Below, in pieces: positions 1 through 14,317 of a stretch of DNA of 64,000 nucleotides. This DNA comes from Candidatus Poribacteria bacterium (GTDB taxonomy: Bacteria; Poribacteria; WGA-4E; PCPOR2b), in assembly GCA_965116925.1 (NCBI GenBank), contig OZ220744.1:5952001-6016000 (forward strand). The letters are read 5' to 3'. The position numbers and the translations under genes are program-made. Below the pieces are notes generated by a model. The model was not told the DNA's origin. It saw only the letters and a program-made list of their open reading frames with translations, and searched no databases. Numbering within the stretch: the first letter of the stretch is position 1; every line of letters starts with the position of its first letter.

Positions 1-1629
1 TTGTAACCTATTCTCCTTCCTCGCTGGTGTCCTCTACGGTGCTTTCAGTCCCCTTTTCATCGGGGCAAGGATTGTAACGTTTCTGATTAAGCGGGTGGTG
101 TGCCCTGTTTTGCCTTTCAGTCCCCTTTTCATCGGGGCAAGGATTGTAACTGTGTAACTTCTGGTCCGAGCGGTGGCATCTCGATCACTCTTTCAGTCCC
201 CTTTTCATCGGGGCAAGGATTGTAACAGTATTAGATCCTATAACAGGTGCTGTGATAATTGCTTTCAGTCCCCTTTTCATCGGGGCAAGGATTGTAACAG
301 AGTTTAGCGAATAGCGTTATTAACCCCAAAGTGCCTTTCAGTCCCCTTTTCATCGGGGCAAGGATTGTAACCTATAAATACCGCCCGCAACATTATATCT
401 ATCACCACCCTTTCAGTCCCCTTTTCATCGGGGCAAGGATTGTAACATAACTTATTCGCAGATAATCAACGATAGATCAGGCTTTCAGTCCCCTTTTCAT
501 CGGGGCAAGGATTGTAACCAGCGAACAGCAGTAGAAACACATCTAACAGGCGGTCTTTCAGTCCCCTTTTCATCGGGGCAAGGATTGTAACTACGGAAGC
601 AAAGAAGTATATCGGCTTGGATGAAGCTTTCAGTCCCCTTTTCATCGGGGCAAGGATTGTAACTGCTTGGACGTAACTTGGACGGGACGGCGGTGGGATC
701 TTTCAGTCCCCTTTTCATCGGGGCAAGGATTGTAACCTTTTGGACGGCAGATGCGACGCTGCCGTACACAAGCTTTCAGTCCCCTTTTCATCGGGGCAAG
801 GATTGTAACCAGCAGGGCGTGTGTTGTATGAGCCATTCGAGTTCTTTCTTTCAGTCCCCTTTTCATCGGGGCAAGGATTGTAACCACCGTGATTAGTCTG
901 AATCCTCTACCGTATCAAACAGCTTTCAGTCCCCTTTTCATCGGGGCAAGGATTGTAACTATCAATATCATGGTGTTTTCTCCCGTCTTGGTATCCTTTC
1001 AGTCCCCTTTTCATCGGGGCAAGGATTGTAACGTCAAATGTTCCGAACATACGCATAGCAGATATTGATCTTTCAGTCCCCTTTTCATCGGGGCAAGGAT
1101 TGTAACTGAGCCGTCCGTCGGGGGACACTACCTGCCTAAGACTGCTTTCAGTCCCCTTTTCATCGGGGCAAGGATTGTAACCAACAATTCGACTTTAGAG
1201 GTGAACGCTCGGAACAGTCTTTCAGTCCCCTTTTCATCGGGGCAAGGATTGTAACATGGGTAGTGGCACGACGGCTGTGGCTGCTAAGGAATTCTTTCAG
1301 TCCCCTTTTCATCGGGGCAAGGATTGTAACACATGAACAGACAAGCGCAGCAGCAGCCACACTCGCATCTTTCAGTCCCCTTTTCATCGGGGCAAGGATT
1401 GTAACCGCTCCGATGGATACAGGATACGGGCAGAGGTGGACTTTCAGTCCCCTTTTCATCGGGGCAAGGATTGTAACACGGGCGGGCTGTGGATTGGGCT
1501 AAATGACCTGTGGGCATCTTTCAGTCCCCTTTTCATCGGGGCAAGGATTGTAACATAATATGTATTACAAAGGCAAAGCACTAAAACGTAGGCTTTCAGT
1601 CCCCTTTTCATCGGGGCAAGGATTGTAAC
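1..1629 (-). CRISPR. CRISPR array, 37-bp repeat GTTACAATCCTTGCCCCGATGAAAAGGGGACTGAAAG (transcribed orientation), 22 complete repeats plus 1 partial at the window edge, 22 spacers of 34-40 bp
   Basis: Identical + strand copies CTTTCAGTCCCCTTTTCATCGGGGCAAGGATTGTAAC start at 42,114,190,262,335,410,482,555,627,700,773,848,923,996,1070,1145,1219,1294,1369,1441,1518,1593. CCCC/GGGG stem with an 8-nt 3' handle ending GAAAG. AT-rich leader on the right implies minus-strand transcription. Confidence 0.99.
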
Positions 1630-2030: not shown

Positions 2031-2603
2031 TCATAATACATCGGCACAGAATCGACGAAATTCACACTCGACGCATTTGCCGCGCTGTGGTGTCGGTGGA
2101 GGCATCCACTCCTCTGATAGCATACGCCGTATCTGTTTGATAGCGTCGAGAGTCCTGCGCCTAAGTGTCTCTGAAATCGGAACTGGTGTGATGCGCCCTG
2201 TAGGGATCCGATAGATGAACCCTTGAGACACCGATTGACCGAGACACTCCTCCACCATCAGCGCGTAGGCTGTCAACTGATACTTCGCGTTCAGATTCAA
2301 CCGTTGGGTCGTGTCCTTAAACTCGACTGGAAACGCGCCATCTTCGGTCTCAATAAGCAGGTCGAGCACACCGCTCAGTCCGAGGGACTCGGCGTATAGT
2401 GAGATGTGGAACTGACGGCTACCAGCCTCCAGTCCGTAGCGGGAGAGGGTTCGCCGTCGCTCTAAGACGCTTAGGATTTCGTGTTGGACCGCGCCGATTT
2501 GCATCGGGTGCGTCGTTGGGCGGGTCACGGGGGTGTAGTAGGTGTGGTAGACCACCCGTGGACAGTAGAAGTATTGTTTGATGTCGCTGACCCGTATGTT
2601 CAT
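2031..2603 (-). CDS. cas4: CRISPR-associated exonuclease Cas4
   Basis: N-terminal YCPR, GxxD..ExK RecB motifs, QLxxY and C-terminal CxxCxxxxxC Fe-S ligands. ATGA overlap with cas2. Confidence 0.95.
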   Translation of the reverse strand: MNIRVSDIKQYFYCPRVVYHTYYTPVTRPTTHPMQIGAVQHEILSVLERRRTLSRYGLEAGSRQFHISLYAESLGLSGVLDLLIETEDGAFPVEFKDTTQRLNLNAKYQLTAYALMVEECLGQSVSQGFIYRIPTGRITPVPISETLRRRTLDAIKQIRRMLSEEWMPPPTPQRGKCVECEFRRFCADVL

Positions 2604-2851
2604 TTTCCATTCTCCTCAATGACGGTTCGTTTGTCGTAGTCTTTTGCACACACGCTAAGGATCTCGATCTTCCCTTCCGCTTTGCCGAGTTGTTCGGTCA
2701 GTTTCTCCTCCAATGCGCGCCGCCGGGTTGTGTTGATGTCACCGAGGAATGCGCTGTACTGGATGCGTTTTAAGCCGTAGTCGAGGCAGACATCGGCAAT
2801 CTTTTTGCGGATGCGGTCTTTCACGATGTCGTAGATGACGTAGGTGTGCAT
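2600..2851 (-). CDS. cas2: CRISPR-associated endonuclease Cas2
   Basis: 83 aa with YVIYDI start and RIQYSAF motif. Confidence 0.95.
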   Translation of the reverse strand: MHTYVIYDIVKDRIRKKIADVCLDYGLKRIQYSAFLGDINTTRRRALEEKLTEQLGKAEGKIEILSVCAKDYDKRTVIEENGK

Positions 2852-2858
2852 GAATTAT

Positions 2859-2892
2859 AGAAACCGAGTTTTTTCTTGAAAACTCGGTTTCT
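2859..2892. repeat. REP family A palindrome AGAAACCGAGTTTT-N6-AAAACTCGGTTTCT
   Basis: 14-bp inverted arms. Further copies at 3481-3514, 3646-3679 (degenerate), 8755-8787, 13243 (half), 14681-14714, 16335-16368, 28721-28754, 63086-63119 and 63994-edge. Confidence 0.9.
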
Positions 2893-2899
2893 CTGTCCC

Positions 2900-3466
2900 C
2901 TAATCTAACATCAAGTGCTCTATAAACTCCCTATTGGTCTCAGAATACGCACAGACGAATTTAGTATAAGCTTGGCGCGAAGGAAGTTGAGACAGTACGA
3001 TATCAGGTTTGGATAAAGTTCCGTTACGCAAACCGATGTAGTCCTGATAGCTAGAAAATGTCCAACTTTCTGGATTACTGGCTATCCCCGCCAATACTGG
3101 ATTTAGGTGAATATAGCGTGAAAGATGTAGAAGATATTCGTTTTTGTCTACTAACTTTGCCTTAAAGACACCTTGGAAAACTGGTCCCACGCGGTCTTGT
3201 TGCCGATTCACAGCTTTGGTGTAGGATACGGTGAATGGTTGCATAATTTTCGTGCTCAGGTTGTCATCTTTCAGGTAAGCGAGAATGTGGTAATGATTCG
3301 GCATAAGACAATAGGCGACAATTTCAATTAAATCAGGAAGGCAGTAGTGGCGTAAGCGTTTTATAAAGTATCCCCAGTTTTCCTTATCAAAGAAGATGGG
3401 TTGACGGTTTACGCCGCGGTTGTATAAATGGTAATAATGTCCTGCTCTAAATTGAACGTCTCGCAT
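2900..3466 (-). mobile_element. REP-associated tyrosine transposase (RAYT / Y1_Tnp, IS200-like HUH)
   Basis: YHxxNRG, YCLMPNHYH (HUH), RYIHLNP (catalytic Tyr) and WxxSSY motifs. Flanked on both sides by REP family A palindromes. Confidence 0.92.
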
Positions 3467-3480
3467 CTATGGTGTCTCCC

Positions 3481-3679
3481 AGAAACCGAGTTTTTTCTTC
3501 AAAACTCGGTTTCTATCGGTTTCTAAATGTGTTGTACCTTAAATCGGTAATTTGGTATCTATGGTGCGTCCGAGAAACTGCTCGCCTGCAACCTTCCACA
3601 CACGCTCCCATGAAAATTGGGAGTTTCGTATCTATGACGTGTCCAAGAAACTAAGTTTTGAAGAAAAAACTGAGTTTCT
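3481..3679. repeat. REP family A cluster upstream of RAYT
   Basis: Palindromes at 3481-3514 and 3646-3679. Three ATCTATG-N7-8-AGAAAC-type units near 3466, 3558 and 3630. Confidence 0.8.
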
Positions 3680-3686
3680 AAACTTT

Positions 3687-4796
3687 TTACCATGTGGCGG
3701 TGAAGGGGTGATAGTCTCGTTCGCGGCGTAGGTGCATGGCGAGGTGACGCGCTTGGAGCTGGATGATGTTGCAGAGTTTTTGCGCTTTTCGCTCGAATCG
3801 TTCGGTTTCTTGAAGTCTCGCCAGTACGCGATCGGCAAGGGCGCGTCGGGTCGCTTGGCTGAGGCGGCGTTGTGTTGGGGTTTCGGTCTCCGCATCGGGT
3901 TTCGAGGATTGGTGCACGGCTTTGGCGGCGTCGCTGTCGGGGTCTTCCCACTCGACTTTGAATCGTTTGTTGATCATCGCGAACACGACCCGATCCACGA
4001 CGGGTTGGCGGAACTCTTCGATGAAGTCTAGCACCAGTGAGGGTTTGCCGGGGCGATCGACGTGCAGGAATCCGGCAAACGGTTCTAGCCCTGCCAGTGT
4101 GAGCGCGCTCCAGACTTGTGAGTAGAGTATGCCGTAGCCGTAGTTGAGCAGTGCGTTCACGTCGTCGGTTGCGCCTTGATGGTTGCGAGTGGTGAAGCGT
4201 CCGGCGGGCAGCAGGCGTTGGACGCATTCCCAGTAGAGGGCACCGGCGCGTCCTTCAAGGTTCAGTAGTGTGCTACGTGCATTGTCGATTGGCGGTTCGC
4301 TGACTGCAGCAACGGTTGGGGATTGAACGTCCTGGATTTCGTCAATCAGTCCTTCGATCTTTGTGAGTCGTTCCATCAGTTCGGCGTATTTTTTGGGTGC
4401 CTGTTTTTTGCGGTATTTGCCGAAGTAGCGAACGAGGTTGATCTGGTTCTTCAGCTTGCCAGTAGCAAACTGTTTGGCGATCTCTAGGCCGCGCTCGTCG
4501 TGGTAGGCGGCGAGTTGTTCGCGCCTTGAGATCACGGTCGCTGTCAGGGACGGGCTGTTGAGTTTCGCATACGGTTTGCCGTTGAAGCTGAGGAATGCGA
4601 TTTCGATGCCGCGCTCGGTACAGGCTTCAATGAGATCTGAGGACATGCTGACGCCACGTGAGGTGATGACGATTTGATCGAGGTCCATCAGGGGGTGTTC
4701 CTCTTTTTCGCGGTCTTTGTCTCGGTATCGGACGCTGACGCGCTCGGAGCGTTTGCCGAGGTATGTGCCGTAGTCGGAGATGATGAGTTGTTCCAT
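3687..4796 (-). CDS. cas1: CRISPR-associated endonuclease Cas1
   Basis: EGxAxxxYW, NALLNYGY, GFLH and DFIEEFR motifs. Start set at ATG 4796 (MEQLIIS) behind a GAAAGGA RBS. Confidence 0.96.
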   Translation of the reverse strand: MEQLIISDYGTYLGKRSERVSVRYRDKDREKEEHPLMDLDQIVITSRGVSMSSDLIEACTERGIEIAFLSFNGKPYAKLNSPSLTATVISRREQLAAYHDERGLEIAKQFATGKLKNQINLVRYFGKYRKKQAPKKYAELMERLTKIEGLIDEIQDVQSPTVAAVSEPPIDNARSTLLNLEGRAGALYWECVQRLLPAGRFTTRNHQGATDDVNALLNYGYGILYSQVWSALTLAGLEPFAGFLHVDRPGKPSLVLDFIEEFRQPVVDRVVFAMINKRFKVEWEDPDSDAAKAVHQSSKPDAETETPTQRRLSQATRRALADRVLARLQETERFERKAQKLCNIIQLQARHLAMHLRRERDYHPFTATW

Positions 4797-4863
4797 TTTT
4801 CTGTTTCCTTTCGATCCGCTGCTTGCGTCGGTCTTGAATTTCGGGTACACTTTAATAACCTAA

Positions 4864-5018
4864 TAGGACTTACGCAGTTGATATAAATATCGCCGCTGCC
4901 TTCGTGGCGCGGTGCCTGCTCTTGAAGAAATTGGGGGTTCCCAGTCTGCAATAGTGGGTACAGGTTGCCTAACCTGTACGGGGTGTGCGATGTTTGCCAG
5001 CGAAGTGCGTAACTCCTA
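4864..5018. mobile_element. MITE-like element with ends TAGGACTTACGCA / TGCGTAACTCCTA
   Basis: 13-bp near-perfect terminal inverted repeats with TA at both outer ends. Non-coding. Confidence 0.6.
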
Positions 5019-5263
5019 CCTAAGTTGCTATTCGTTGAAAGTCCACCGTTTTTTATCAGGGCAGAACCTCCCCGACCATCTGGTAGGTCCTTTGTCTTTC
5101 GCTCCAGAGGAGCGATATGTCTATAGAACCACAATAGGGTGGATACCCGCGCTCCAGAGGAGCGCAATGTGTATAGCCAGGGCCAAGCTGCCGATAAATT
5201 GAAGTCCTAAGAACGGATTGGCGAAGTCGGAGCCGAGCGGGTTTTATAACTAGCAACTTGCGT
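5018..5263. mobile_element. MITE-like element with ends ACCTAAGTTGCTA / TAGCAACTTGCGT, carrying GCTCCAGAGGAGC hairpins
   Basis: Inverted ends match those at 39455-39753. Solitary ends near 12180, 35283, 46213 and 50358. Confidence 0.55.
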
Positions 5264-5321
5264 TTTAACAAGGAACGCAGATCTGCGTTCCCTACCCCCG
5301 GTTGTAAGCGATTATGGGAGA

Positions 5322-5621
5322 TTGACTCAGGTGGTTCTTATGTGCCAACGTTGCAATACCTACAAATATCTTGAGCCCCGCCCAAAGAACTGGCGAAACC
5401 AGCTCTGGATTAAGGGCAGAAATATGACGGTTTGGCATCTGATCGCTGCGATGCGTACTGAACATGAGACGCTTGAACAAACCGCTGAAAACTTTGGTTT
5501 GCCGCTGGAGGCTGTCGTCGAAGCGATGCACTACTATGCACTTCACAAGGATATTGTCGAAGCGGATGTTGAAGCGGAGAAGCAGATCCTCGTTGAAGAA
5601 TTCAGAGTTGCCTATTGTTAG
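5322..5621 (+). CDS. DUF433-like (VapB45-type) HTH antitoxin, orphan
   Basis: IKGRNMTVW...AENFGLPLEAVVEAMHYY pattern of DUF433. No PIN toxin follows, and cas3 converges on it. Confidence 0.7.
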   Translation: MTQVVLMCQRCNTYKYLEPRPKNWRNQLWIKGRNMTVWHLIAAMRTEHETLEQTAENFGLPLEAVVEAMHYYALHKDIVEADVEAEKQILVEEFRVAYC

Positions 5622-5664
5622 CGAAAATTAACTCCTTAGCCAGTCCCTTTAACAATGGTGGATA

Positions 5665-8022
5665 TTAATCAAATGTCAATCCCACCTCCGAGTTATATTT
5701 GGCGGTAACGCGATAAGGTTCTCGTCCATTTCTCAGAATTTGGTCACTGTTTTTGAGTGCGTGAAACCTTCCCCAACTGATTGGGACTAACAGTTCTCCG
5801 GCGCGAATTGGTTCTTCCTCGTTCAGAGTTTTGTATTCATTATAGAGAGAAGCCGGTAGGACCTCAAGTCCATCAAACGCCCTGTAAAATGCTTCCTCAA
5901 GTCCCTCGTCTGCTGCAAAAGGACGCATTGGTCGTATGCACATTCTATCAAAGTTTGCGGCGGCGTTTTCGTATTTCTCCCGCCAACGAACTTCAACTTC
6001 GCCACTGTAGATTTCATCCAACCAAGCACCGATACTGCCCTCATCAATTGGCTGTTCATGTTCGCGTTCAAGAATAGAAAGGGTGCGTTGTACCAGTTCG
6101 GGATCATAAATCTTTTGTCCATCGTCAGGTTGACGAAAGACATGAACAGGCGCGAGACCTTTCTGTAGTCTACGACGGTTGATACGACCAAAACGTTGTA
6201 CTAGTGCCTCCAGCGGTGCCGGCTCTGTGTAGATTGTATCCAAATCAATATCAAGACTGACCTCAACCGCCTGTGTTGCAACGAGGACAATAGGTTGACG
6301 TTTCTCGCTCGTTGCTCCCGTTGCATCCCGAATCAGTTTTTCTTTCGCAGAACGGTCACGCATATTGAAACGACCGTGTAAAAGTTCCGTTCGGATATTC
6401 ACCTGATTCAGTTGGTCACTAATTTGGTTATATGCTTCTTGTGTGCGATCAACGAGATTGCACACAACCAACACCGATTTTCCCGCCTCTGCGTCGTTGA
6501 CCACATTTGACAACCCGGAATCAGTCAATAATTCGCCGTCGTGCAGCATCAGTCGATGACGGATAAATTCTTGGAACAACGCTGAATCAGCTTCAATTTT
6601 AGCTGGGGTGTCTAAGGCTTCAGATAACCAACCTTGAATCAGCGTTGGGAAGGTTGCTGACATGATGAAGAAACGGGCGTTGAAATTCACTCTCAGGTAC
6701 TCGATGGTTTTGAGGATCATCGCCAATCGCGTGACTTCGTAGGCGTGAATCTCGTCAAATATAAACGCCGCATTATGATAATCGGTGAGCAACGCCTCGT
6801 AACCTTTGAGGCGATACATCCCTTTAAGCATTTGATACGGACTAAATACACGGACCGGCGGATAATTAAGCCGTGATAGATTCCGCGCCCATGTTGCGGT
6901 ACGAGCTGCTGCTCTTGGATGATAATCTCTTTCTAAGAGAGCCCGATAAAGTGCTAGCAGACCACGGCCATGTTGCAAACCAACGTGTGGGAAGATTTCT
7001 TCTAGGCGACCTTGCATTGCATTCATACTGGCTTGATAGGGGAGTGTATAAAAGAGTCGAGGCAATCCACCGACACTTGATGACTGGCGTGCTGCCCACA
7101 GTAGAGCGGCTTCTGTTTTCCCACTACCGGTTGGTGCTACTAAGAGTGCTGAACCATCAACTGTTTCGGCTAGTGATTGGTGTCCAAAGAGACTTTCCGT
7201 CGATAGGTTACGGCTTGTTAAAATCGTATCTGCGTCAAACTCGGCAACCGGTATCGGTCCAGCGTGAGCGGAGGCACTGTGGTCTGCATTGATGATATAG
7301 CCGCGAACAGTGATTCCTAGCACGATTGCATCAAGTGTGCCTCTCCTCTCTAAATTTCGGTTGAGTGTCCGGTAAACCTTCAGCCAGTGCCGGGTTCGTT
7401 CAACGCCGTATTGTTGGACAGCTTCAATCGCGATATGCTTCTCTTGCAGCTGAGGCGTTGAGATGCCAAAATTTGCTAACCCAAGTTCATCCCGCCACGC
7501 GATACCACATTCTGACAACCAACGCCACAATCCGCCCAAGGTTTTCTCTGAGAGGGAGGCAAGTTGAGGTCTCAAAGGGTCATCGTCCTCCCAATCAGGG
7601 ATAGGGTAAATTCGCTGAATTTCCTCGAAATCTCGATGGTGTGAGACAATGCTGGCAACAAGCCATCGCTGCTCTTCCGTTGACAGATCATCAATCACCC
7701 AATCCACAAACGCAAGCGAAAACACTTCGTGACGGTGCCCCCATCCTCCCCCATTACAACGGAGTTGCATTTGAAAGCCTGCTATTGCCTTGCCAAAATC
7801 GTGAAGGAATGCTGACCAGAAAAGGATGTGCCATAAACGTGGTACGTTGAGTTGCGTTGGAAGATTGGGGCGTAATTGGATGAATTCTGCCAATCGTGAT
7901 AACACATACCATGTGTGCTGGGCTAATGTTTCCGGTTGACCGCCTTCACCCAATTCCGCACTTTTTGCCCACACATTGTTTAACCAATCGGGATATGGGA
8001 CGTTTTCAATTGAAGGTTGCAT
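5665..8022 (-). CDS. cas3: Cas3 HD nuclease-helicase
   Basis: HD motif LHDFGK, Walker A APTGSGKT, DEIH, SAT and QRFGRINR. Start set at ATG 8022 with a GGGAG RBS. Confidence 0.97.
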   Translation of the reverse strand: MQPSIENVPYPDWLNNVWAKSAELGEGGQPETLAQHTWYVLSRLAEFIQLRPNLPTQLNVPRLWHILFWSAFLHDFGKAIAGFQMQLRCNGGGWGHRHEVFSLAFVDWVIDDLSTEEQRWLVASIVSHHRDFEEIQRIYPIPDWEDDDPLRPQLASLSEKTLGGLWRWLSECGIAWRDELGLANFGISTPQLQEKHIAIEAVQQYGVERTRHWLKVYRTLNRNLERRGTLDAIVLGITVRGYIINADHSASAHAGPIPVAEFDADTILTSRNLSTESLFGHQSLAETVDGSALLVAPTGSGKTEAALLWAARQSSSVGGLPRLFYTLPYQASMNAMQGRLEEIFPHVGLQHGRGLLALYRALLERDYHPRAAARTATWARNLSRLNYPPVRVFSPYQMLKGMYRLKGYEALLTDYHNAAFIFDEIHAYEVTRLAMILKTIEYLRVNFNARFFIMSATFPTLIQGWLSEALDTPAKIEADSALFQEFIRHRLMLHDGELLTDSGLSNVVNDAEAGKSVLVVCNLVDRTQEAYNQISDQLNQVNIRTELLHGRFNMRDRSAKEKLIRDATGATSEKRQPIVLVATQAVEVSLDIDLDTIYTEPAPLEALVQRFGRINRRRLQKGLAPVHVFRQPDDGQKIYDPELVQRTLSILEREHEQPIDEGSIGAWLDEIYSGEVEVRWREKYENAAANFDRMCIRPMRPFAADEGLEEAFYRAFDGLEVLPASLYNEYKTLNEEEPIRAGELLVPISWGRFHALKNSDQILRNGREPYRVTAKYNSEVGLTFD

Positions 8023-8731
8023 CGTTATCTCCCACAAAGCTATGGAAAACCAAACCGAGATAGTTGCCTTGATATTCAGGCGTTGAAAGGTCAATCCAAT
8101 ATTTGCCCTTCCCATTTGAAAGGGAAACTCGATCGGTGAGTACCGTGTACTGTGAAAATGTTGGACGTCGGTTTTGACTGTAATCCAAATAGCGAGGCAT
8201 TAGAACCGATACACCGCGCCCAATTCGGGGCCCCATCTCATGCGGCATAATCGTATGTTCAAAGTAGGCAGCCTCGTTCTGCTGCAATTCAATAACGTTG
8301 ACTGCTGTGTAGGTGAACAGGTCCTGCGATCTGCCCAACGAAACCGCATAGCGCGGACTTCGGAATGCTGACTCCCATTCCGGACGGTTGATGTAGAGCG
8401 TGAGACGCGGCTGAAAGATTAACTCCCGTTCAAAGGGATTCACCCTGCCCTCAAGTGCGTTAGGAATTTGAGTGCCCGGCAACTTGCTACGGCTAGAACT
8501 GGATGGCGTCAATACAATGATGTGTTCAATATCCCGAACGTGCCCTTGATGGGTGAAATGGTAAGCGAATTGAACCCCACTTGGATCGAACCATTCCCCC
8601 AACGCACTACAGATATGCCCGTAAATGGTTGCCGGGGGCGGCATCTGAAAGCTGGGGTGAATCTGTTGCATAAAGTGAGGATAGCGGAAAGAAGTGGTAA
8701 GTCCTTCCGCAACGACTTTGAGGACTTTCAT
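8006..8731 (-). CDS. cas5: Type I-B Cas5
   Basis: TSFRYP, PPPATIYG and LGRSQDL motifs. Start ATG 8731 behind GGGAGG. Confidence 0.93.
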   Translation of the reverse strand: MKVLKVVAEGLTTSFRYPHFMQQIHPSFQMPPPATIYGHICSALGEWFDPSGVQFAYHFTHQGHVRDIEHIIVLTPSSSSRSKLPGTQIPNALEGRVNPFERELIFQPRLTLYINRPEWESAFRSPRYAVSLGRSQDLFTYTAVNVIELQQNEAAYFEHTIMPHEMGPRIGRGVSVLMPRYLDYSQNRRPTFSQYTVLTDRVSLSNGKGKYWIDLSTPEYQGNYLGLVFHSFVGDNDATFN

Positions 8732-8796
8732 AGAGACCTCCCAATTTAAGGATGAGAAACCGAGCTTTTCCAAAAAACTCGGTTTCTTCTCCGTTA

Positions 8797-9885
8797 TCAA
8801 TCCAACCAATTCGCATTTTCTGATTTTTGTAAATCTTCAGCGAAAGCCTTAAATGCGTCCCGTGGATGATTTACCCTTATGTTTGCCCCACAACTTGCCA
8901 AACCGGGGGGATCGCTTAATGCCTCCTCAAACTTAGCTCGTTCTTGGTCGAGATAACCTTTAGTCCAACCGACATAAATATCCGAGAGAATATCGTCCTT
9001 GAAAACCGTCAGTGTCTCGGCAAGTGCATCAATCTTCAGCTCCGGTTCATCCCGCTGATTTGGTCCGATGACATGACCGAAAATGTGATTGCCTCCTTTG
9101 GTCACCGCCAAGATTGTCAACGCCGGACTCACATCTGTGTAATGTAGCGATTGTTTCGCGCCACCTTCGAGGTGTGCGAGTCCGTCCAAAAGCGTACTGA
9201 TACGTTGAACGCGTGCTTCGTATGGGAGTCGGTAGGATTTTTCATCTTCGAGGTGTTCAAGATCCTGTGTTTGTGCCAGTCCAATCCGCACGTCATCAAG
9301 GTTTCGGTAGCCTGTTTTATTTCGGTAGGAGAATGTGCCCACGGCATGTAAATCGAGCGATAGAAGCCCTTTGAGGGTTGCACGATAGAATTGGTGTTCA
9401 TGAGGTACAGGGTCACCTTCATGACGTGACATTGTGCCAAAATCCTCGGTAACATTTGTTGGCGCGATGGAAACCAATGTACTCACGCGAAATGGCGATA
9501 CACGAGTAACCGTATCCGTGGTTTCAGTTTCGTTTGCCCGCGATTCATCTGCTTCCCGCTTCTCTTTAGCAGATGTCCTTTTAGACGGCGCACGCATATA
9601 ACCGAAAAGATCGTCGTCCCACCACTCAATTGGATTGGCGTCGGTATAAGCAACTTTTTCCTCTCGGTAGATTGGAGCGGGAGCCCAACCTTGTCCACCA
9701 TTTTCAAGGGTTGTACGCAGCCAATAACGAAATGACTGCGCTGATACATAGGGATAAGCACCCTGCTTCGTGCGAATCATCTTGACTCCCACGGTGTTAT
9801 CGGTGCGAGCACCAGGAATGCTTCCGAGATTATTAAGTGCAGATGCCGGTGCATCAATAAGCATCAAACCTGTTGCAAATGCCAT
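8797..9885 (-). CDS. cas7: Type I-B Cas7 (Cst2/DevR)
   Basis: PYVSAQSFRYWLR, DDLFGYM, RVSPF and GGAKQ motifs. Lies between cas8 and cas5. Confidence 0.95.
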   Translation of the reverse strand: MAFATGLMLIDAPASALNNLGSIPGARTDNTVGVKMIRTKQGAYPYVSAQSFRYWLRTTLENGGQGWAPAPIYREEKVAYTDANPIEWWDDDLFGYMRAPSKRTSAKEKREADESRANETETTDTVTRVSPFRVSTLVSIAPTNVTEDFGTMSRHEGDPVPHEHQFYRATLKGLLSLDLHAVGTFSYRNKTGYRNLDDVRIGLAQTQDLEHLEDEKSYRLPYEARVQRISTLLDGLAHLEGGAKQSLHYTDVSPALTILAVTKGGNHIFGHVIGPNQRDEPELKIDALAETLTVFKDDILSDIYVGWTKGYLDQERAKFEEALSDPPGLASCGANIRVNHPRDAFKAFAEDLQKSENANWLD

Positions 9886-9918
9886 GATATAAACCTCCTT
9901 GCAATTTGTGATAATTCG

Positions 9919-11415
9919 TTAGCTGTTTTCATCCTCGTTCTCTTGAGCGGTTTCTTCAACCAGATCAGGATTTTCGCCCAACCAGCCTTTCTCATGTAAC
10001 TGTTCAACCATCCGGATGAACACCAAGTCACGCGCCAGCCACCAGTCTGGACGTTCTAATCCGTACCCCTCTTCAAAAACTTCAATATATGGGTCAAGTT
10101 TGATAATCGGTGGATTACCACGGTTGACATGCTCCAGATTGGCACGGATTAGTAATCTACGTACGTCACTGGACCTACGTTGATGAAAAAAATCACGGAA
10201 GAAACGACGATCATTCTGACTACTGACATAATTCGCCAGTTGGTCGCCCATCTTGCGAATCTCCTCAATTCGTTCCTTTTCCATGTGAAATACCCTCCTT
10301 AAAAAAGATGCGATGATATTCCATGACACCAAATTCATCTCGTGTGTTAGTCCGTAGTTTCCCCGTGGGTCACCTTGGTTGACGCGACCGTAGCGGGACC
10401 GGCGACGCAAAAAGTAGGTCCGTAAAAATGCCTTTGCTCTGTCCGGCAAAAGAAACAAACCATCGTACAATCCTAAGACATCTTCATAAAGCCAATTTCG
10501 ACGCGGTTGGAATGGCTTATTATCTTTTTTTCGTTTATTTTGGGGTTCAGTCTCCCATGCACGATTGACGATTCCATTCCATTGTGTACGGTAATCTGCG
10601 CTCTGCATTTCACGCAGAAATCCAATAATTTGAAGCGGTAAGTGATAGATGTCCAAACCGACGCCCTGCCCGCTGTTTGTCAGGTGATATGCTGTGAGTG
10701 AGAAAGGCTCCTCATCTTGAAGCTCCTCCCGCTGTCTAATATCACCTTGAAGGAGTGTGTTAATTAGCAGTGTGCCGCGAGAGTTATGTGGTTCCTCTAT
10801 TTTCTTGCTGCCTGCTGCTTGGGCGAGAGCAATTGCTCTCTGATTTCCTTCTAGAAACGATCGGGCAAAATATAGCATAAGGTCTGGATTATCTGAATGC
10901 ACCGCAAGCAGGCGTCCTGCGGACTTTGCACATCCAAGTGGAAATGCCTGAATAGCGAGCAGTGCTTCACCTGAAACGGGTAAGCCTGCCTCACCATAGG
11001 CGTGGAAGTTGATAACATTTTCACCGGTGAGCAGTGGGATGTGTTGGCGAAAAGCGCGTCCCTGTGGCAGGGTCTCTTTTTCTCCAAATGCGATATTAAC
11101 GGCTGGCTTGCCTGTGAAAACACACACCTCATCATCAAGCAGGGGGGTATCATCGCTATAATTCCGCAGTACACGGGTTGCATACGCTGAACGCTTTTCG
11201 GGCGTTTTATTGTATGCTGGTTGCGTAAAGCCTGAATTTGGAAAAGCGACTGTCAAAAACGACTTGAGTGGGTCTCGGACGTATTCACGAGTGATATAGT
11301 CCGCAACTTCGTCAAGGTCAGTTTCTGTCAATTCATCAGGGTTTCGCTTGTCCACAAAAGCGGTAATTGTTGCAATTCCCACATCAACAAGTGGGTGTCC
11401 TGTGTATTTGAGCAT
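9919..11415 (-). CDS. cas8b1: Type I-B large subunit Cas8b1/Cst1
   Basis: YTGHPLVDVG start, FPNS, C-x-F-T-G, RQHIPLLTG..INF and C-terminal W.LARDL. First gene of the Cascade operon. Confidence 0.9.
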   Translation of the reverse strand: MLKYTGHPLVDVGIATITAFVDKRNPDELTETDLDEVADYITREYVRDPLKSFLTVAFPNSGFTQPAYNKTPEKRSAYATRVLRNYSDDTPLLDDEVCVFTGKPAVNIAFGEKETLPQGRAFRQHIPLLTGENVINFHAYGEAGLPVSGEALLAIQAFPLGCAKSAGRLLAVHSDNPDLMLYFARSFLEGNQRAIALAQAAGSKKIEEPHNSRGTLLINTLLQGDIRQREELQDEEPFSLTAYHLTNSGQGVGLDIYHLPLQIIGFLREMQSADYRTQWNGIVNRAWETEPQNKRKKDNKPFQPRRNWLYEDVLGLYDGLFLLPDRAKAFLRTYFLRRRSRYGRVNQGDPRGNYGLTHEMNLVSWNIIASFLRRVFHMEKERIEEIRKMGDQLANYVSSQNDRRFFRDFFHQRRSSDVRRLLIRANLEHVNRGNPPIIKLDPYIEVFEEGYGLERPDWWLARDLVFIRMVEQLHEKGWLGENPDLVEETAQENEDENS

Positions 11416-11447: not shown

Positions 11448-11480
11448 ATTATATCCCCGATTCCCGTCAGAACATGTCGG
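11448..11480 (-). promoter_or_regulatory. cas8 promoter: TATAAT -10 with an upstream inverted repeat CCGACA-N5-TGACGG (candidate WYL operator)
   Basis: Minus strand reads CCGACATGTTCTGACGG-GAATCGGGGA-TATAAT. No recognisable -35. Confidence 0.6.
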
Positions 11481-11602: not shown

Positions 11603-11703
11603 ACATTGCAAAACGGCACCAATTCTAATAAAATAGATACGTGACGATATGGGACACTATATTTTATAGCTGCCTATCCAATATCAGAGGAGTGTACCGT
11701 CCT

Positions 11704-11949
11704 ATGAAAGTGATCGAGTATATCGCAGAAGTATTACCCAACGGTTCTCTCGCACTGCCTGACGACATCCGAAAAGCGTTGGGATCGCAAACGCAAGTCA
11801 AAGTGACGTTAGCAGTGGAAACACCTTCGACCCCTGACCTCCAGAAGGGTTGGCAAATTTTCAAAGATCTTGGAAAAGATGCGGTTGCTGGGAAGCTGTC
11901 CAACACTTCGATAAATCATGACGAATACCTCTACGGTACACGGAAATGA
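11704..11949 (+). CDS. Small antitoxin-like protein (AbrB-like N-terminus, HDxYLY C-terminus), orphan
   Basis: GAGGAG RBS. NGSLALPDDIR hairpin motif. The C-terminal S.NHDEYLY resembles antitoxins found upstream of PIN toxins. The overlapping ATG (11946) ORF stops after 6 codons. Confidence 0.6.
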   Translation: MKVIEYIAEVLPNGSLALPDDIRKALGSQTQVKVTLAVETPSTPDLQKGWQIFKDLGKDAVAGKLSNTSINHDEYLYGTRK

Positions 11950-12236: not shown

Positions 12237-13175
12237 TTATTCAATCCGATATTTCCCCAACCCAAACGTTGCGTTTTTGCCGACGTGCAGAAACCTGCCC
12301 AACGCCGCGAATGGCATGAACGCCGCCAAATCGCCGTTATAGGTTACACACCCAACCAGTCCTCCGAGCTGCATCTTCTGATTCTGTCGTGAGGAGTAGC
12401 GTGTCCAGTCCTTCCATCGCAGGCTGCTCTGGACGGTTTGGATCGTTTCCGCCTGTGCGATGAGTCCCTTGAAATCGAGATCCAACGATTCGCCACAGTG
12501 GAAATATGCCAACGCCGAGATTCGCCCGATCAGTCGTCGCCAGAAGAGGTGGAACGGGAGTTGATCCGTTATTTGCCCCTTATGTGTGATCCGCGTGGGG
12601 GTGAGCAGGTGCACGGTCAACTGGTCGGTCGGTAGTGATGCTGCTTCGCCCTGAATCTCGTCGAAGCTGAGTGTGTTATTAAGGTTCTGTATCATCTGGG
12701 TTTCGCCATCGTAGACTGATTCGCCGTCCTCGGTCTGGACGTGGGTCAGTTGGAACCGTCCGCGTCCCTTGCCGATGCCGATCTCGCCTAGTTCGCGGAA
12801 GCTAACCAGAAAATAGGGGAGGTAGTCGATGGCGCGTCCGATCAGGGTCAGACGGAACACAAACGATTCTCCTCGCCGGTATTCGCCTCGTGTACTTAGG
12901 GGGTCGATCACGAAGGGTCTAGGCACGTCCCCATACGTCCTTAATTGTTGCGCGCCCTCGAATGGGGCGGTCTCGAAGATGTAGGGGTATGGGCACACGG
13001 CTTTGAGTGTGCAATCTCGGCAGTCAATTGGTCCTTGGGTACAGACCATCTTTCGGAAGGCGTGTCCGAATCCGCCGCGGAGTGTGGAACCGGCGTAGGG
13101 TGGCATCACAATTTTTGAGAGCGCGGTTAGGATTATATGGTAGCGTGCGATTCGGAAGTTCTGTAGTGGGTTCAT
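12237..13175 (-). CDS. cas6: CRISPR pre-crRNA processing endoribonuclease Cas6 (DUF2276-type RAMP)
   Basis: GSTLRGGFG, Cys cluster C..C..C...CPY, PRPFV and the C-terminal G-loop HVGKNATFGLG. Confidence 0.95.
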   Translation of the reverse strand: MNPLQNFRIARYHIILTALSKIVMPPYAGSTLRGGFGHAFRKMVCTQGPIDCRDCTLKAVCPYPYIFETAPFEGAQQLRTYGDVPRPFVIDPLSTRGEYRRGESFVFRLTLIGRAIDYLPYFLVSFRELGEIGIGKGRGRFQLTHVQTEDGESVYDGETQMIQNLNNTLSFDEIQGEAASLPTDQLTVHLLTPTRITHKGQITDQLPFHLFWRRLIGRISALAYFHCGESLDLDFKGLIAQAETIQTVQSSLRWKDWTRYSSRQNQKMQLGGLVGCVTYNGDLAAFMPFAALGRFLHVGKNATFGLGKYRIE

Positions 13176-13191
13176 TGGTGTTTCCTTTTCT

Positions 13192-13215
13192 CATATAGCC
13201 CGCTTTTCATCGCGG
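13192..13215 (-). repeat. CRISPR-repeat hairpin mimic in the cas6 5' UTR
   Basis: Minus strand CCGC GATGAAAA GCGG GCTATATG: same 8-nt loop as the array repeat and a compensatory stem pair. Confidence 0.7.
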
Positions 13216-13264
13216 TATGTAAGGGATGATGAGGAAAGCCTCAGAAACCGAGTTTTTCGGAAAT

Positions 13265-13287
13265 GGGCGGGGAAACCCCGCCCCTAC
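13265..13287. repeat. GTAG-type REP family B (GGGCGRGG-N3-YYCGCCCCTAC)
   Basis: Copies at 35583-35605, 39295-39317 and 46176-46198. Related GTAG hairpins near 1885, 1948, 5270, 20170, 35413, 39368 and 39568. Confidence 0.8.
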
Positions 13288-13295
13288 GGTTTCTG

Positions 13296-13320
13296 GGTAT
13301 AATCGGGAGTCATTATACCA
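13296..13320 (-). promoter_or_regulatory. cas6 extended -10 promoter (TGGTATAAT) inside a perfect GGTATAAT-N8-ATTATACC palindrome
   Basis: Read directly from the sequence, between the WYL stop and cas6. Confidence 0.55.
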
Positions 13321-13345
13321 TCCGAGAGTGCAATATATACGCACT

Positions 13346-14317
13346 TTACTTTTTATTGTAAATTTGCTGCATTTTTTTAATTTCCGCCTTGATCTCATGG
13401 CGGAGGCTTTCGGGTTCAACGACTTCTGCATGTGATCCGTAGCCCATCACCCACCGCTTCACTTCGCCCAACCCACCGACTCTCAGACGGAGTATCAGTT
13501 CACCGGAAGGCAGCTCCTCGATCTGTTGGCTGGGGTGCCATTCGCGTTCCCTGATCCAGCGTGCCTGATATTCGTCAAATTTGATGACGATATTTTCGGG
13601 TTCTGTCGCCCGTTCAGCGAGAAACCCAGCCTCTAAGTAGGCATTGAGTGAAAAATCCGGGGGGACTTGGAAAGAGGATAGTAGGTGTTTATACGCTTTG
13701 ATGCGGCTGGTGAGAAAGTCCCGGGGTTCGCGTCGGGTATGACAATAGGCGATTAAATACCAATCACCCTGAATGTTATGGAGATGGTATGGATCAACAA
13801 TGCGTGTGCTTGTTTGACCGCTACTCGCTGAATAGTACTCTATTTCAATTGAGTATCTTGAAAGGATAGCCTCGTTGAGTTCAAGCAGTAATTCTGGATC
13901 AACTATCGCTCTGCCGCCGCCTGTGAAGGTAAACGCAGCGGTTTTCCTTTGTGCATCGTAGCTTACACTCTCTGGCAGATGTTGTTTTATCTTATCGAGT
14001 GCGAGTCGAAGCGGCGTTTCAAAAGGAGTGCCCAGATACCGTCTAAATAATTCTTCTCCCAGAAAAAAAGCGGTAATTTCTTCGCTTGTCAGCATTATTG
14101 CAGGAAGGAAATAGGTGGGATCCGTGTAGTACCAACCGTTTCTGGTTCTGTCATATTTGATAGGCGCGCCAAAGCGGTTTATCAGAAATTTCCTATCTTC
14201 GTAGGCGATTCGGGTGCTGCGGAGTTCAAAGTGTGCCTGGACTGTATGGGCGTTTGGATACCTTTCTCTTTGAATCTGATCATCAATCCAGTAAATTCTT
14301 TCCAGCTTGGTAGACAT
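13346..14317 (-). CDS. HTH-WYL-WCX transcriptional regulator associated with the cas locus
   Basis: N-terminal winged HTH, WYL motif GDWYLIAYCH..R..RDF...RI and C-terminal WCX (WVMGYGSHAEVVEPESLR). Confidence 0.93.
   Translation of the reverse strand: MSTKLERIYWIDDQIQRERYPNAHTVQAHFELRSTRIAYEDRKFLINRFGAPIKYDRTRNGWYYTDPTYFLPAIMLTSEEITAFFLGEELFRRYLGTPFETPLRLALDKIKQHLPESVSYDAQRKTAAFTFTGGGRAIVDPELLLELNEAILSRYSIEIEYYSASSGQTSTRIVDPYHLHNIQGDWYLIAYCHTRREPRDFLTSRIKAYKHLLSSFQVPPDFSLNAYLEAGFLAERATEPENIVIKFDEYQARWIREREWHPSQQIEELPSGELILRLRVGGLGEVKRWVMGYGSHAEVVEPESLRHEIKAEIKKMQQIYNKK

What the first reader, a model, noticed from the sequence alone, without database searches (positions are those of the whole stretch)
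13176..13228. cas6 mRNA leader contains a near-perfect copy of its own substrate hairpin
Minus strand CCGC-GATGAAAA-GCGG versus array CCCC-GATGAAAA-GGGG: 14/16 identical, the loop is identical, and the two differences form one compensatory C-G to G-C pair, a signature of selection on RNA structure. The stem base is 24 nt from the cas6 ATG, just upstream of the RBS, while flanking repeat sequence (the handle needed for Cascade loading) has diverged. This suggests Cas6 autoregulates by binding or cleaving its own leader, or uses the site to split a WYL-cas6 transcript (inference).
Basis: partly seen in the sequence, partly recalled or inferred. Interest (0 to 1): 0.85.

Follow-up and report, generated by a model that had tools for sequence, protein, structure and literature searches.

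The report
Orphaned CRISPR repeat in cas6 leader
A leftover piece of a small regulatory CRISPR RNA gene sits just in front of the gene for the CRISPR-RNA-cutting enzyme Cas6 and has been kept almost unchanged in related marine bacteria, which suggests, without direct proof, that the enzyme recognises and trims its own messenger RNA.

Summary
The hairpin is real: 13200-13215 (minus strand), 14/16 identical to the array hairpin, 24 nt before the cas6 ATG of a type I-B locus, and the only such site outside the array in the 6.47-Mb genome. It is the distal repeat of a CreA/CreR-type mini-array. Seven related loci keep repeat-spacer-repeat, and 5 of those 7 spacers match a CC-PAM-flanked site upstream. 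Here and in 8 other loci of the same cas6 clade the first repeat and spacer are gone, yet the 15-nt core shows 2 changes where about 32 are expected. So it is under selection on its own, most likely as a Cas6 site in the cas6 leader. The element is clade-restricted. No RNA data were available, so binding, cleavage and the sign of any feedback are inferred. Verdict: a new variant of known ectopic CRISPR repeats, with a credible but untested case for Cas6 self-processing.

The parts
13200..13215 (-). Repeat-derived hairpin (orphan distal repeat, PsiR2-like); predicted Cas6 site, cut expected between 13200 and 13199 by analogy with the array repeat's 8-nt handle
13192..13199 (-). Degenerate handle position; first two letters are AC in 11 of 12 leader copies, GC here; the rest variable
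13183..13188 (-). RBS-like hexamer of cas6
   Evidence: by sequence only
13216..13242 (-). 27-nt linker between REP and hairpin; includes the decayed 5' half of the repeat; fast-evolving internal control
   Evidence: 20 of 27 columns variable in 5 loci
13243..13294 (.). High-copy REP-like palindrome, lying where relatives have the first repeat and spacer
   Evidence: 345-400 genomic copies of its arms
13312..13320 (-). Extended -10-like element, putative promoter upstream of the hairpin
   Evidence: seen by eye; the consensus scan found no -35/-10 pair
13328..13344 (-). Conserved 17-nt near-palindrome over the -35 region, putative WYL operator (inference)
12237..13175 (-). cas6, 312 aa
13346..14317 (-). 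WYL-WCX transcriptional regulator gene
2031..11415 (-). cas8b1, cas7 (Cst2/DevR), cas5, cas3, cas1, RAYT, cas2, cas4: type I-B locus
43..1629 (-). CRISPR array, 22 repeats in the window, continuing beyond the window start

Best explanation
The hairpin descends from the distal repeat of a CreA/CreR-type mini-array (repeat-spacer-repeat) that lay in front of cas6. In this lineage a REP element and a WYL-type promoter took the place of the first repeat and spacer, so no guide can be made, but the hairpin was kept as a stand-alone Cas6 site in the 5' leader. Shown by sequence: descent, loss of the first repeat, purifying selection, position. Inferred: the leader is transcribed from the -10 at 13312-13320; Cas6 binds the hairpin and cuts at its 3' base; this leaves a cas6 (in some relatives cas6-cas8-cas7-cas5-cas3) mRNA with a 20-24-nt leader and intact RBS, and about 100 nt of 5' RNA held by Cas6; cas6 output thereby depends on free Cas6. 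The sign of that feedback is not determined: the RBS survives the cut, so it could dampen, stabilise or merely standardise the mRNA.
For: Complete mini-arrays with the same distal element and shared 5' flank in 7 loci: before cas6 in L004, L011, L016, and elsewhere in the cas locus in L012, L014, L015 (before cas3 or cas10d-like genes) and L109. 5 of 7 spacers match a CCT/CCC-flanked site 49-808 nt upstream at 12-15 of 15 scored positions, reached by 0-2 of 300 shuffles each. No first repeat within 1.5 kb in 9 of the 11 clade members, while the same search finds it in L004, L011, L016. In those 9 loci the 15-nt core has 2 parsimony changes and the inner stem 0, against 2.16 per site at 97 four-fold columns of cas6 and 41 changes in the 15 nt 5' of it; 0 of 200,000 resamplings are as low. 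In 5 loci that share the REP end 27 nt upstream, 20 of 27 linker columns vary but 1 of 15 core columns, so constraint outlasted loss of the first repeat. Loop positions that vary (3, 4, 7) are those that vary among real array repeats; arrays with an A-G or T-G outer pair and with the CGC stem exist beside close Cas6 relatives. It persists beside two unrelated WYL genes with different operators, or none, and beside different effector modules. Degenerate second repeats of creA are still cut by Cas6 (PMC8501985, passages).
Against: No RNA, binding or cleavage data. The 9 loci are kin and may share one loss event. The leader stem does not track the stem of the locus's own array: CGC in all 12 leaders, while of the 11 whose array was seen 10 have the CCC stem. 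Three-pair stems fold weakly in context (pair probability 0.06-0.99, median about 0.55). RBS accessibility after the modelled cut rises in 8 and falls in 4 of 12 loci, mostly slightly. The first handle letter, A in 11 of 12 leaders, is G here, which could impair cutting in this genome. Close relatives do without it: intact in 1 of the 14 rows outside the clade, decayed in L009 and L015, absent in L010, L012 and L056, which carry the same operator-like palindrome. 2 of 7 mini-arrays have no detectable target, and 1 of 13 control repeats also reached 12/15 with 0 of 300 shuffles.
Confidence: 0.55

Rival explanations
1. The selected product is the released 5' fragment, not the mRNA: a host-encoded decoy ending in a Cas6-bound hairpin and lacking a 5' handle, which soaks up Cas6 and Cas7 as phage Racr RNAs do and so damps Cascade assembly.
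For: Same anatomy as RacrIF1, whose products upstream of the cut (about 70-76 nt) bind Cas6f and Cas7f only, and whose handle can be changed without losing most activity (PMC10651486, passages). Putative promoters lie 72-126 nt upstream of the hairpin in 7 of 9 orphan loci. Shmakov et al. propose effector titration for conserved single repeats.
Against: The fragment's sequence and length are not conserved and are mostly REP. One decoy per cas6 mRNA would be easily saturated (inference). Not exclusive of the best explanation.
Confidence: 0.14
2. A Cas6-independent leftover: the hairpin is kept as a 5' stabilising or translation element, or simply hitch-hikes beside the RBS after recent, repeated losses of the first repeat.
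For: Dispensable in sister lineages; does not track the local array stem; four changes around the stem base in this genome.
Against: The core is more conserved than second codon positions of cas6 (0.13 against 0.28 changes per site) and than the adjacent linker; a generic stem would not need an almost invariant 8-nt loop; it is a weak fold.
Confidence: 0.14
3. The constraint is on DNA: a binding site for a regulator, or a repeat used for recombination or Cas1-Cas2 events that swap effector modules next to cas6.
For: Effector and WYL modules are shuffled around cas6 among close relatives; Shmakov et al. suggest single repeats can aid recombination.
Against: It lies 72-126 nt downstream of the -10, is unchanged beside two WYL types whose own palindromes differ, always has the transcript's orientation, and a 15-nt core diverged from the local array is a poor recombination substrate (inference).
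Confidence: 0.1
4. It still makes a guide, either as first repeat with the RBS region as spacer, or with an undetected first repeat.
For: Homologous elements are parts of target-matched mini-arrays.
Against: Handle positions 3-8 are variable; no first repeat in 1.5 kb and no other hairpin-plus-handle site near the locus in the genome.
Confidence: 0.05

Closest known systems
CreA/CreR degenerate mini-CRISPRs and regulatory mini-arrays (PMC8501985; 10.1101/2023.03.10.532045; 10.1101/2023.03.03.530964)
   Same: Ectopic repeat near cas6 in a type I-B locus (reported near 27% of I-B cas6 genes); second repeat keeps the hairpin and loses the handle; relatives carry the full unit with PAM-flanked partial targets.
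   Different: Here the handle-bearing first repeat and spacer are gone, so no guide; the loss described in PMC8501985 is of the second repeat. The retained repeat lies 24 nt from a start codon.
Solitary repeat units and RNA anti-CRISPRs (RacrIF1, PMC10651486)
   Same: Single repeat hairpin downstream of a promoter; handle not conserved.
   Different: Host-encoded, inside the cas6 leader, derived from a mini-array; Shmakov's SRUs are near-identical whole repeats lacking the downstream repeat, the reverse case.
Engineered Csy4 (Cas6f) hairpins in 5' UTRs (10.1101/2021.04.08.438922)
   Same: Hairpin upstream of an RBS; the cut separates the UTR and leaves the RBS.
   Different: Synthetic; outcome there was lower expression in one construct set and higher in another, so it gives no sign for this case.
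Self-regulating ribonucleases such as RNase III (rnc leader) and RNase E (recalled, from no call)
   Same: Enzyme would act on a substrate mimic in its own leader.
   Different: Those are proven negative loops; here neither cleavage nor sign is shown.

Membership tests
CreA/CreR mini-array (window element) | Proximal repeat with intact 8-nt handle | tested here: not met
   None within 1.5 kb upstream of cas6; none near the locus genome-wide
CreA/CreR mini-array (window element) | Spacer with partial match to a PAM-flanked promoter site | tested here: not met
   No spacer; a REP lies in its place
CreA/CreR mini-array (window element) | Distal degenerate repeat keeping the hairpin, handle decayed | tested here: met
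CreA/CreR mini-array (relatives L004, L011, L012, L014, L015, L016, L109) | Two repeats 64-74 nt apart plus PAM-flanked partial target | tested here: met
   Two repeats in 7 of 7; target in 5 of 7, not in L004 and L109. CCN is inferred from these targets; spacers gave no independent PAM
CreA/CreR mini-array | Cas6-matured RNA represses transcription through Cascade | not testable with these tools
   No RNA holder listed
Racr (RNA anti-CRISPR) | Encoded by a mobile element as a solitary repeat | tested here: not met
   Lies in the host cas locus, vertically shared with cas6; no virus collection was searched
Racr (RNA anti-CRISPR) | Bound and cut by Cas6, forms aberrant Cas6-Cas7 complex | not testable with these tools
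   needs biochemistry
Type I-B CRISPR-Cas (locus) | Cas8b1/Cst1, Cas7 DevR, Cas5, Cas3, Cas6 | tested here: met
   TIGR01908, TIGR02585, TIGR01895, TIGR01587 above cut-off; PF10040

The most novel reading that the evidence does not exclude
Cas6 senses its own free level by cutting a repeat mimic in its own mRNA leader: a post-transcriptional feedback loop that arose by exaptation of the second repeat of a CreR gene, with both the ancestral guide-making state and the derived Cas6-only state visible among living relatives; the released 5' piece may double as a self-made Racr-like decoy.
Probability: 0.4. Interest if true: 0.8.

Novelty: new variant of a known kind. Interest (0 to 1): 0.6.

Why it matters
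Known repeat-based control of cas genes works through a guide and Cascade at the level of transcription. A lone, selected repeat hairpin in the cas6 leader would add control by Cas6 alone at the RNA level, reading the balance between Cas6 and pre-crRNA. It also offers a function for some of the unexplained single repeats reported near cas6, and a clade in which the step from CreR mini-array to orphan site can be traced. It is testable with one protein and short RNAs.

Tried and rejected
RNA evidence: no RNA holder listed; the three runs laid are contigs and show only presence. Upstream-ORF idea: the loop ATG opens a 12-codon frame whose stop overlaps the cas6 ATG here, but the ATG is missing in 3 of 12 leaders and the frame differs among the other 9 (5, 3 and 1): rejected. 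REP origin of the hairpin: the REP is separate, 27 nt upstream, and the hairpin is single-copy: rejected. Tracking of the local array stem by the leader: not seen. RBS-exposure switch: inconsistent. PAM from self-matches of 59 spacers: only short chance-level hits. Promoter consensus scan: 0 found. Distant cas6 (32-69% and short fragments): 63 loci given, 61 scored, 43 without a usable array, 18 tested; L062 matched (last repeat of an adjoining array), L130 4 of 100 shuffles, the rest 18 or more of 100; L026 was first tested in the wrong orientation and redone (27 of 100); many of these genes lie inside operons, so the test is weak. The metagenome scan added no close cas6 (best 62%, no hairpin seen by eye). 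The pattern search over 176 genomes gave 0-2 background hits per genome, like its control, so single hits were not counted. First-repeat labels missed L016 and wrongly flagged L013; corrected. One search crashed and was rerun. L022/L061 (cas6 cut at contig end) was left out of leader counts. Earlier-finding look-ups gave nothing on this element. No structure or complex prediction was run.

Full report
Locus. The window holds a minus-strand type I-B system: WYL regulator (13346-14317), cas6 (12237-13175), then after about 800 nt cas8b1, cas7, cas5, cas3, cas1, a RAYT, cas2, cas4 and an array. The 37-nt repeat has 54 exact copies in the genome, all in this array. The closest cas6 relatives (77-92% identity) are in records titled Candidatus Poribacteria.

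Observation. Confirmed at 13200-13215, 14/16, 24 nt from the ATG. It is the only one of 679 non-array loop 8-mers with a four-pair all-GC stem and the only one of 15 near-matches that keeps the stem; Markov expectation for a given 100-nt leader is 1.2e-6. Contigs from two studies carry the same letters. Upstream lie a 27-nt linker, a high-copy REP (13243-13294), an extended -10-like element (13312-13320) and a 17-nt palindrome (13328-13344); the automatic promoter scan found nothing, so the promoter is an inference.

Distribution. On a tree of 25 close Cas6 proteins, all 11 rows of the clade holding this window (support 91/89; the 10-row core 99/97) have the hairpin starting 38-40 nt before the ATG; of the other 14 rows only L011 has it intact, and L009 and L015 have broken copies. 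The clade was defined by the protein tree, not by the motif. These loci differ in effector module (Cst1-type I-B, other Cas7-DevR systems, I-D-like) and in the upstream WYL (85% or 28% like the window's, or none). Among 18 distant cas6 loci with arrays none has a stand-alone leader match; one abuts an array.

What it descends from. In L004, L011 and L016 a near-perfect repeat with an intact handle lies 65-74 nt upstream of the leader hairpin; in L012, L014, L015 and L109 the same two-repeat unit, with a similar 5' flank on the second repeat, lies elsewhere in the cas locus. The first repeats of L015 and L016 keep their stems through changes on both sides. Five of seven spacers match a site 49-808 nt upstream on the opposite strand, flanked by CCT or CCC, with mismatches falling mainly on positions 6, 12 or 18; 0-2 of 300 shuffled spacers do as well. 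L004 and L109 have no target, and 1 of 13 control repeats reached the same level. In L011 and L016 the target lies at the start of a sigma-70-like gene. This is the CreA/CreR mini-array anatomy: first repeat keeps the handle, second keeps the hairpin (PMC8501985, passages; 10.1101/2023.03.03.530964, passages and section 22; 10.1101/2023.03.10.532045, passages). PMC9458426 (abstract) reports the first repeat as the more diverged overall in haloarchaea, unlike most units here.

The compensatory pair. The CGC/GCG stem is a regular array variant: 163 copies in 10 of 26 loci scanned, some overlapping, and 20 nt of the window leader are identical to the array repeat of L083. All 12 leaders have CGC, though 10 of the 11 arrays seen beside them have CCC. 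The outer pair is A-G in 11 of 12 leaders and C-G only here. So the swap was probably inherited from a repeat variant and is not by itself evidence of selection on this leader. It does show that near relatives of this Cas6 live with that stem, and arrays with A-G (25 copies, L094) or T-G (45 copies, L097) outer pairs exist.

Selection after loss of the first repeat. Nine of the 11 clade members, the window included, have no first repeat within 1.5 kb. Across them the 15-nt core has 2 changes and the six inner stem bases none, against 2.16 per site at 97 four-fold columns, 0.28 at second codon positions, 41 in the 15 nt upstream (ungapped) and 10 in the 8 handle positions. In five loci sharing the REP end exactly 27 nt upstream, 20 of 27 linker columns vary and 1 of 15 core columns (Fisher p 5e-5, columns treated as independent). 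The loop varies at positions 3, 4 and 7, as array loops do, though the 16 second repeats compared were picked with a two-mismatch pattern or from the mini-array scan. These loci are kin and may reflect one loss; the result shows lasting constraint, not repeated invention.

Mechanism. Most likely (0.55) the hairpin is a Cas6 site in the leader. A cut at the stem base would leave 20-24 nt with the RBS, so the mRNA stays translatable. Processed 5'-OH ends were more stable than primary ends in the Racr study, while Csy4 removal of a UTR lowered expression in one cell-free set and raised it in another. Folding gives no consistent RBS switch. Hence 'autoregulation' is plausible but of unknown sign. 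Rivals: Racr-like decoy from the 5' piece (0.14), Cas6-independent leftover (0.14), DNA-level site (0.10), hidden guide (0.05). Splitting a WYL-cas6 transcript is disfavoured because a -10-like element with its palindrome lies between WYL and hairpin in 7 of 9 orphan loci.

Novelty. Repeat-like sequences near cas6 are common in I-B loci (27%) and single repeats are known. Ten full-text searches (listings seen, and passages of PMC12817955, which proved irrelevant) returned no paper that describes a Cas6 site in the cas6 leader or retention of the second repeat alone; the library lacks most subscription journals, and the large data files of Shmakov et al., which I could not see, may list similar loci (the two supplement files held do not name Poribacteria). 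I rate it a new variant of a known kind, interest 0.6; 0.8 if Cas6 feedback is shown (probability 0.4).

Noticed in passing
L011:9255-9990, L016:9211-9985: CreA-like mini-arrays whose spacers match a CC-PAM site at the start of an upstream sigma-70-like gene: a candidate CRISPR-repressed sigma factor cargo.
   Followed up: partly
L012:13263-14135, L014:12430-13255: Mini-arrays target a site before a 148-aa gene of no clear Pfam family, upstream of cas3 or cas10d-like genes; possible CreTA-like cargo.
   Followed up: partly
L015:11998-12110: Mini-array whose first repeat has three stem pairs changed on both sides and whose target lies 49 nt upstream in its own promoter-like region.
   Followed up: partly
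G000:C1:355902-355925 (L090): Solitary 21/24 match to the CGC-stem repeat with most of the handle, overlapping a possible start codon at a junction between two segments; absent from 9 of 9 homologous loci examined.
   Followed up: yes
window 11448-11480: The promoter-like region before cas8b1 carries the other 17-nt palindrome, the one found before cas6 in loci with the unrelated WYL (L001, L003, L006): trace of a module swap.
   Followed up: partly
window 13328-13344; L002, L005, L010, L012, L018, L056, L133: Conserved palindrome just after the WYL stop codon, over the -35 region: candidate WYL operator.
   Followed up: partly
window 11641-11949 (+): 102-aa ORF between cas6 and cas8b1 on the opposite strand, flanked by REP-like repeats; no Pfam hit at E 0.05.
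   Followed up: partly
L096, L100, L102 (array ends), L015 upstream of cas6: Terminal or ectopic repeats broken near the 3' stem base by a similar sequence, as if a REP-type element inserts there.
   Followed up: no
L005, L095, L102, L110, L111: Arrays mixing two or more repeat variants, including both stem types in one locus.
   Followed up: no
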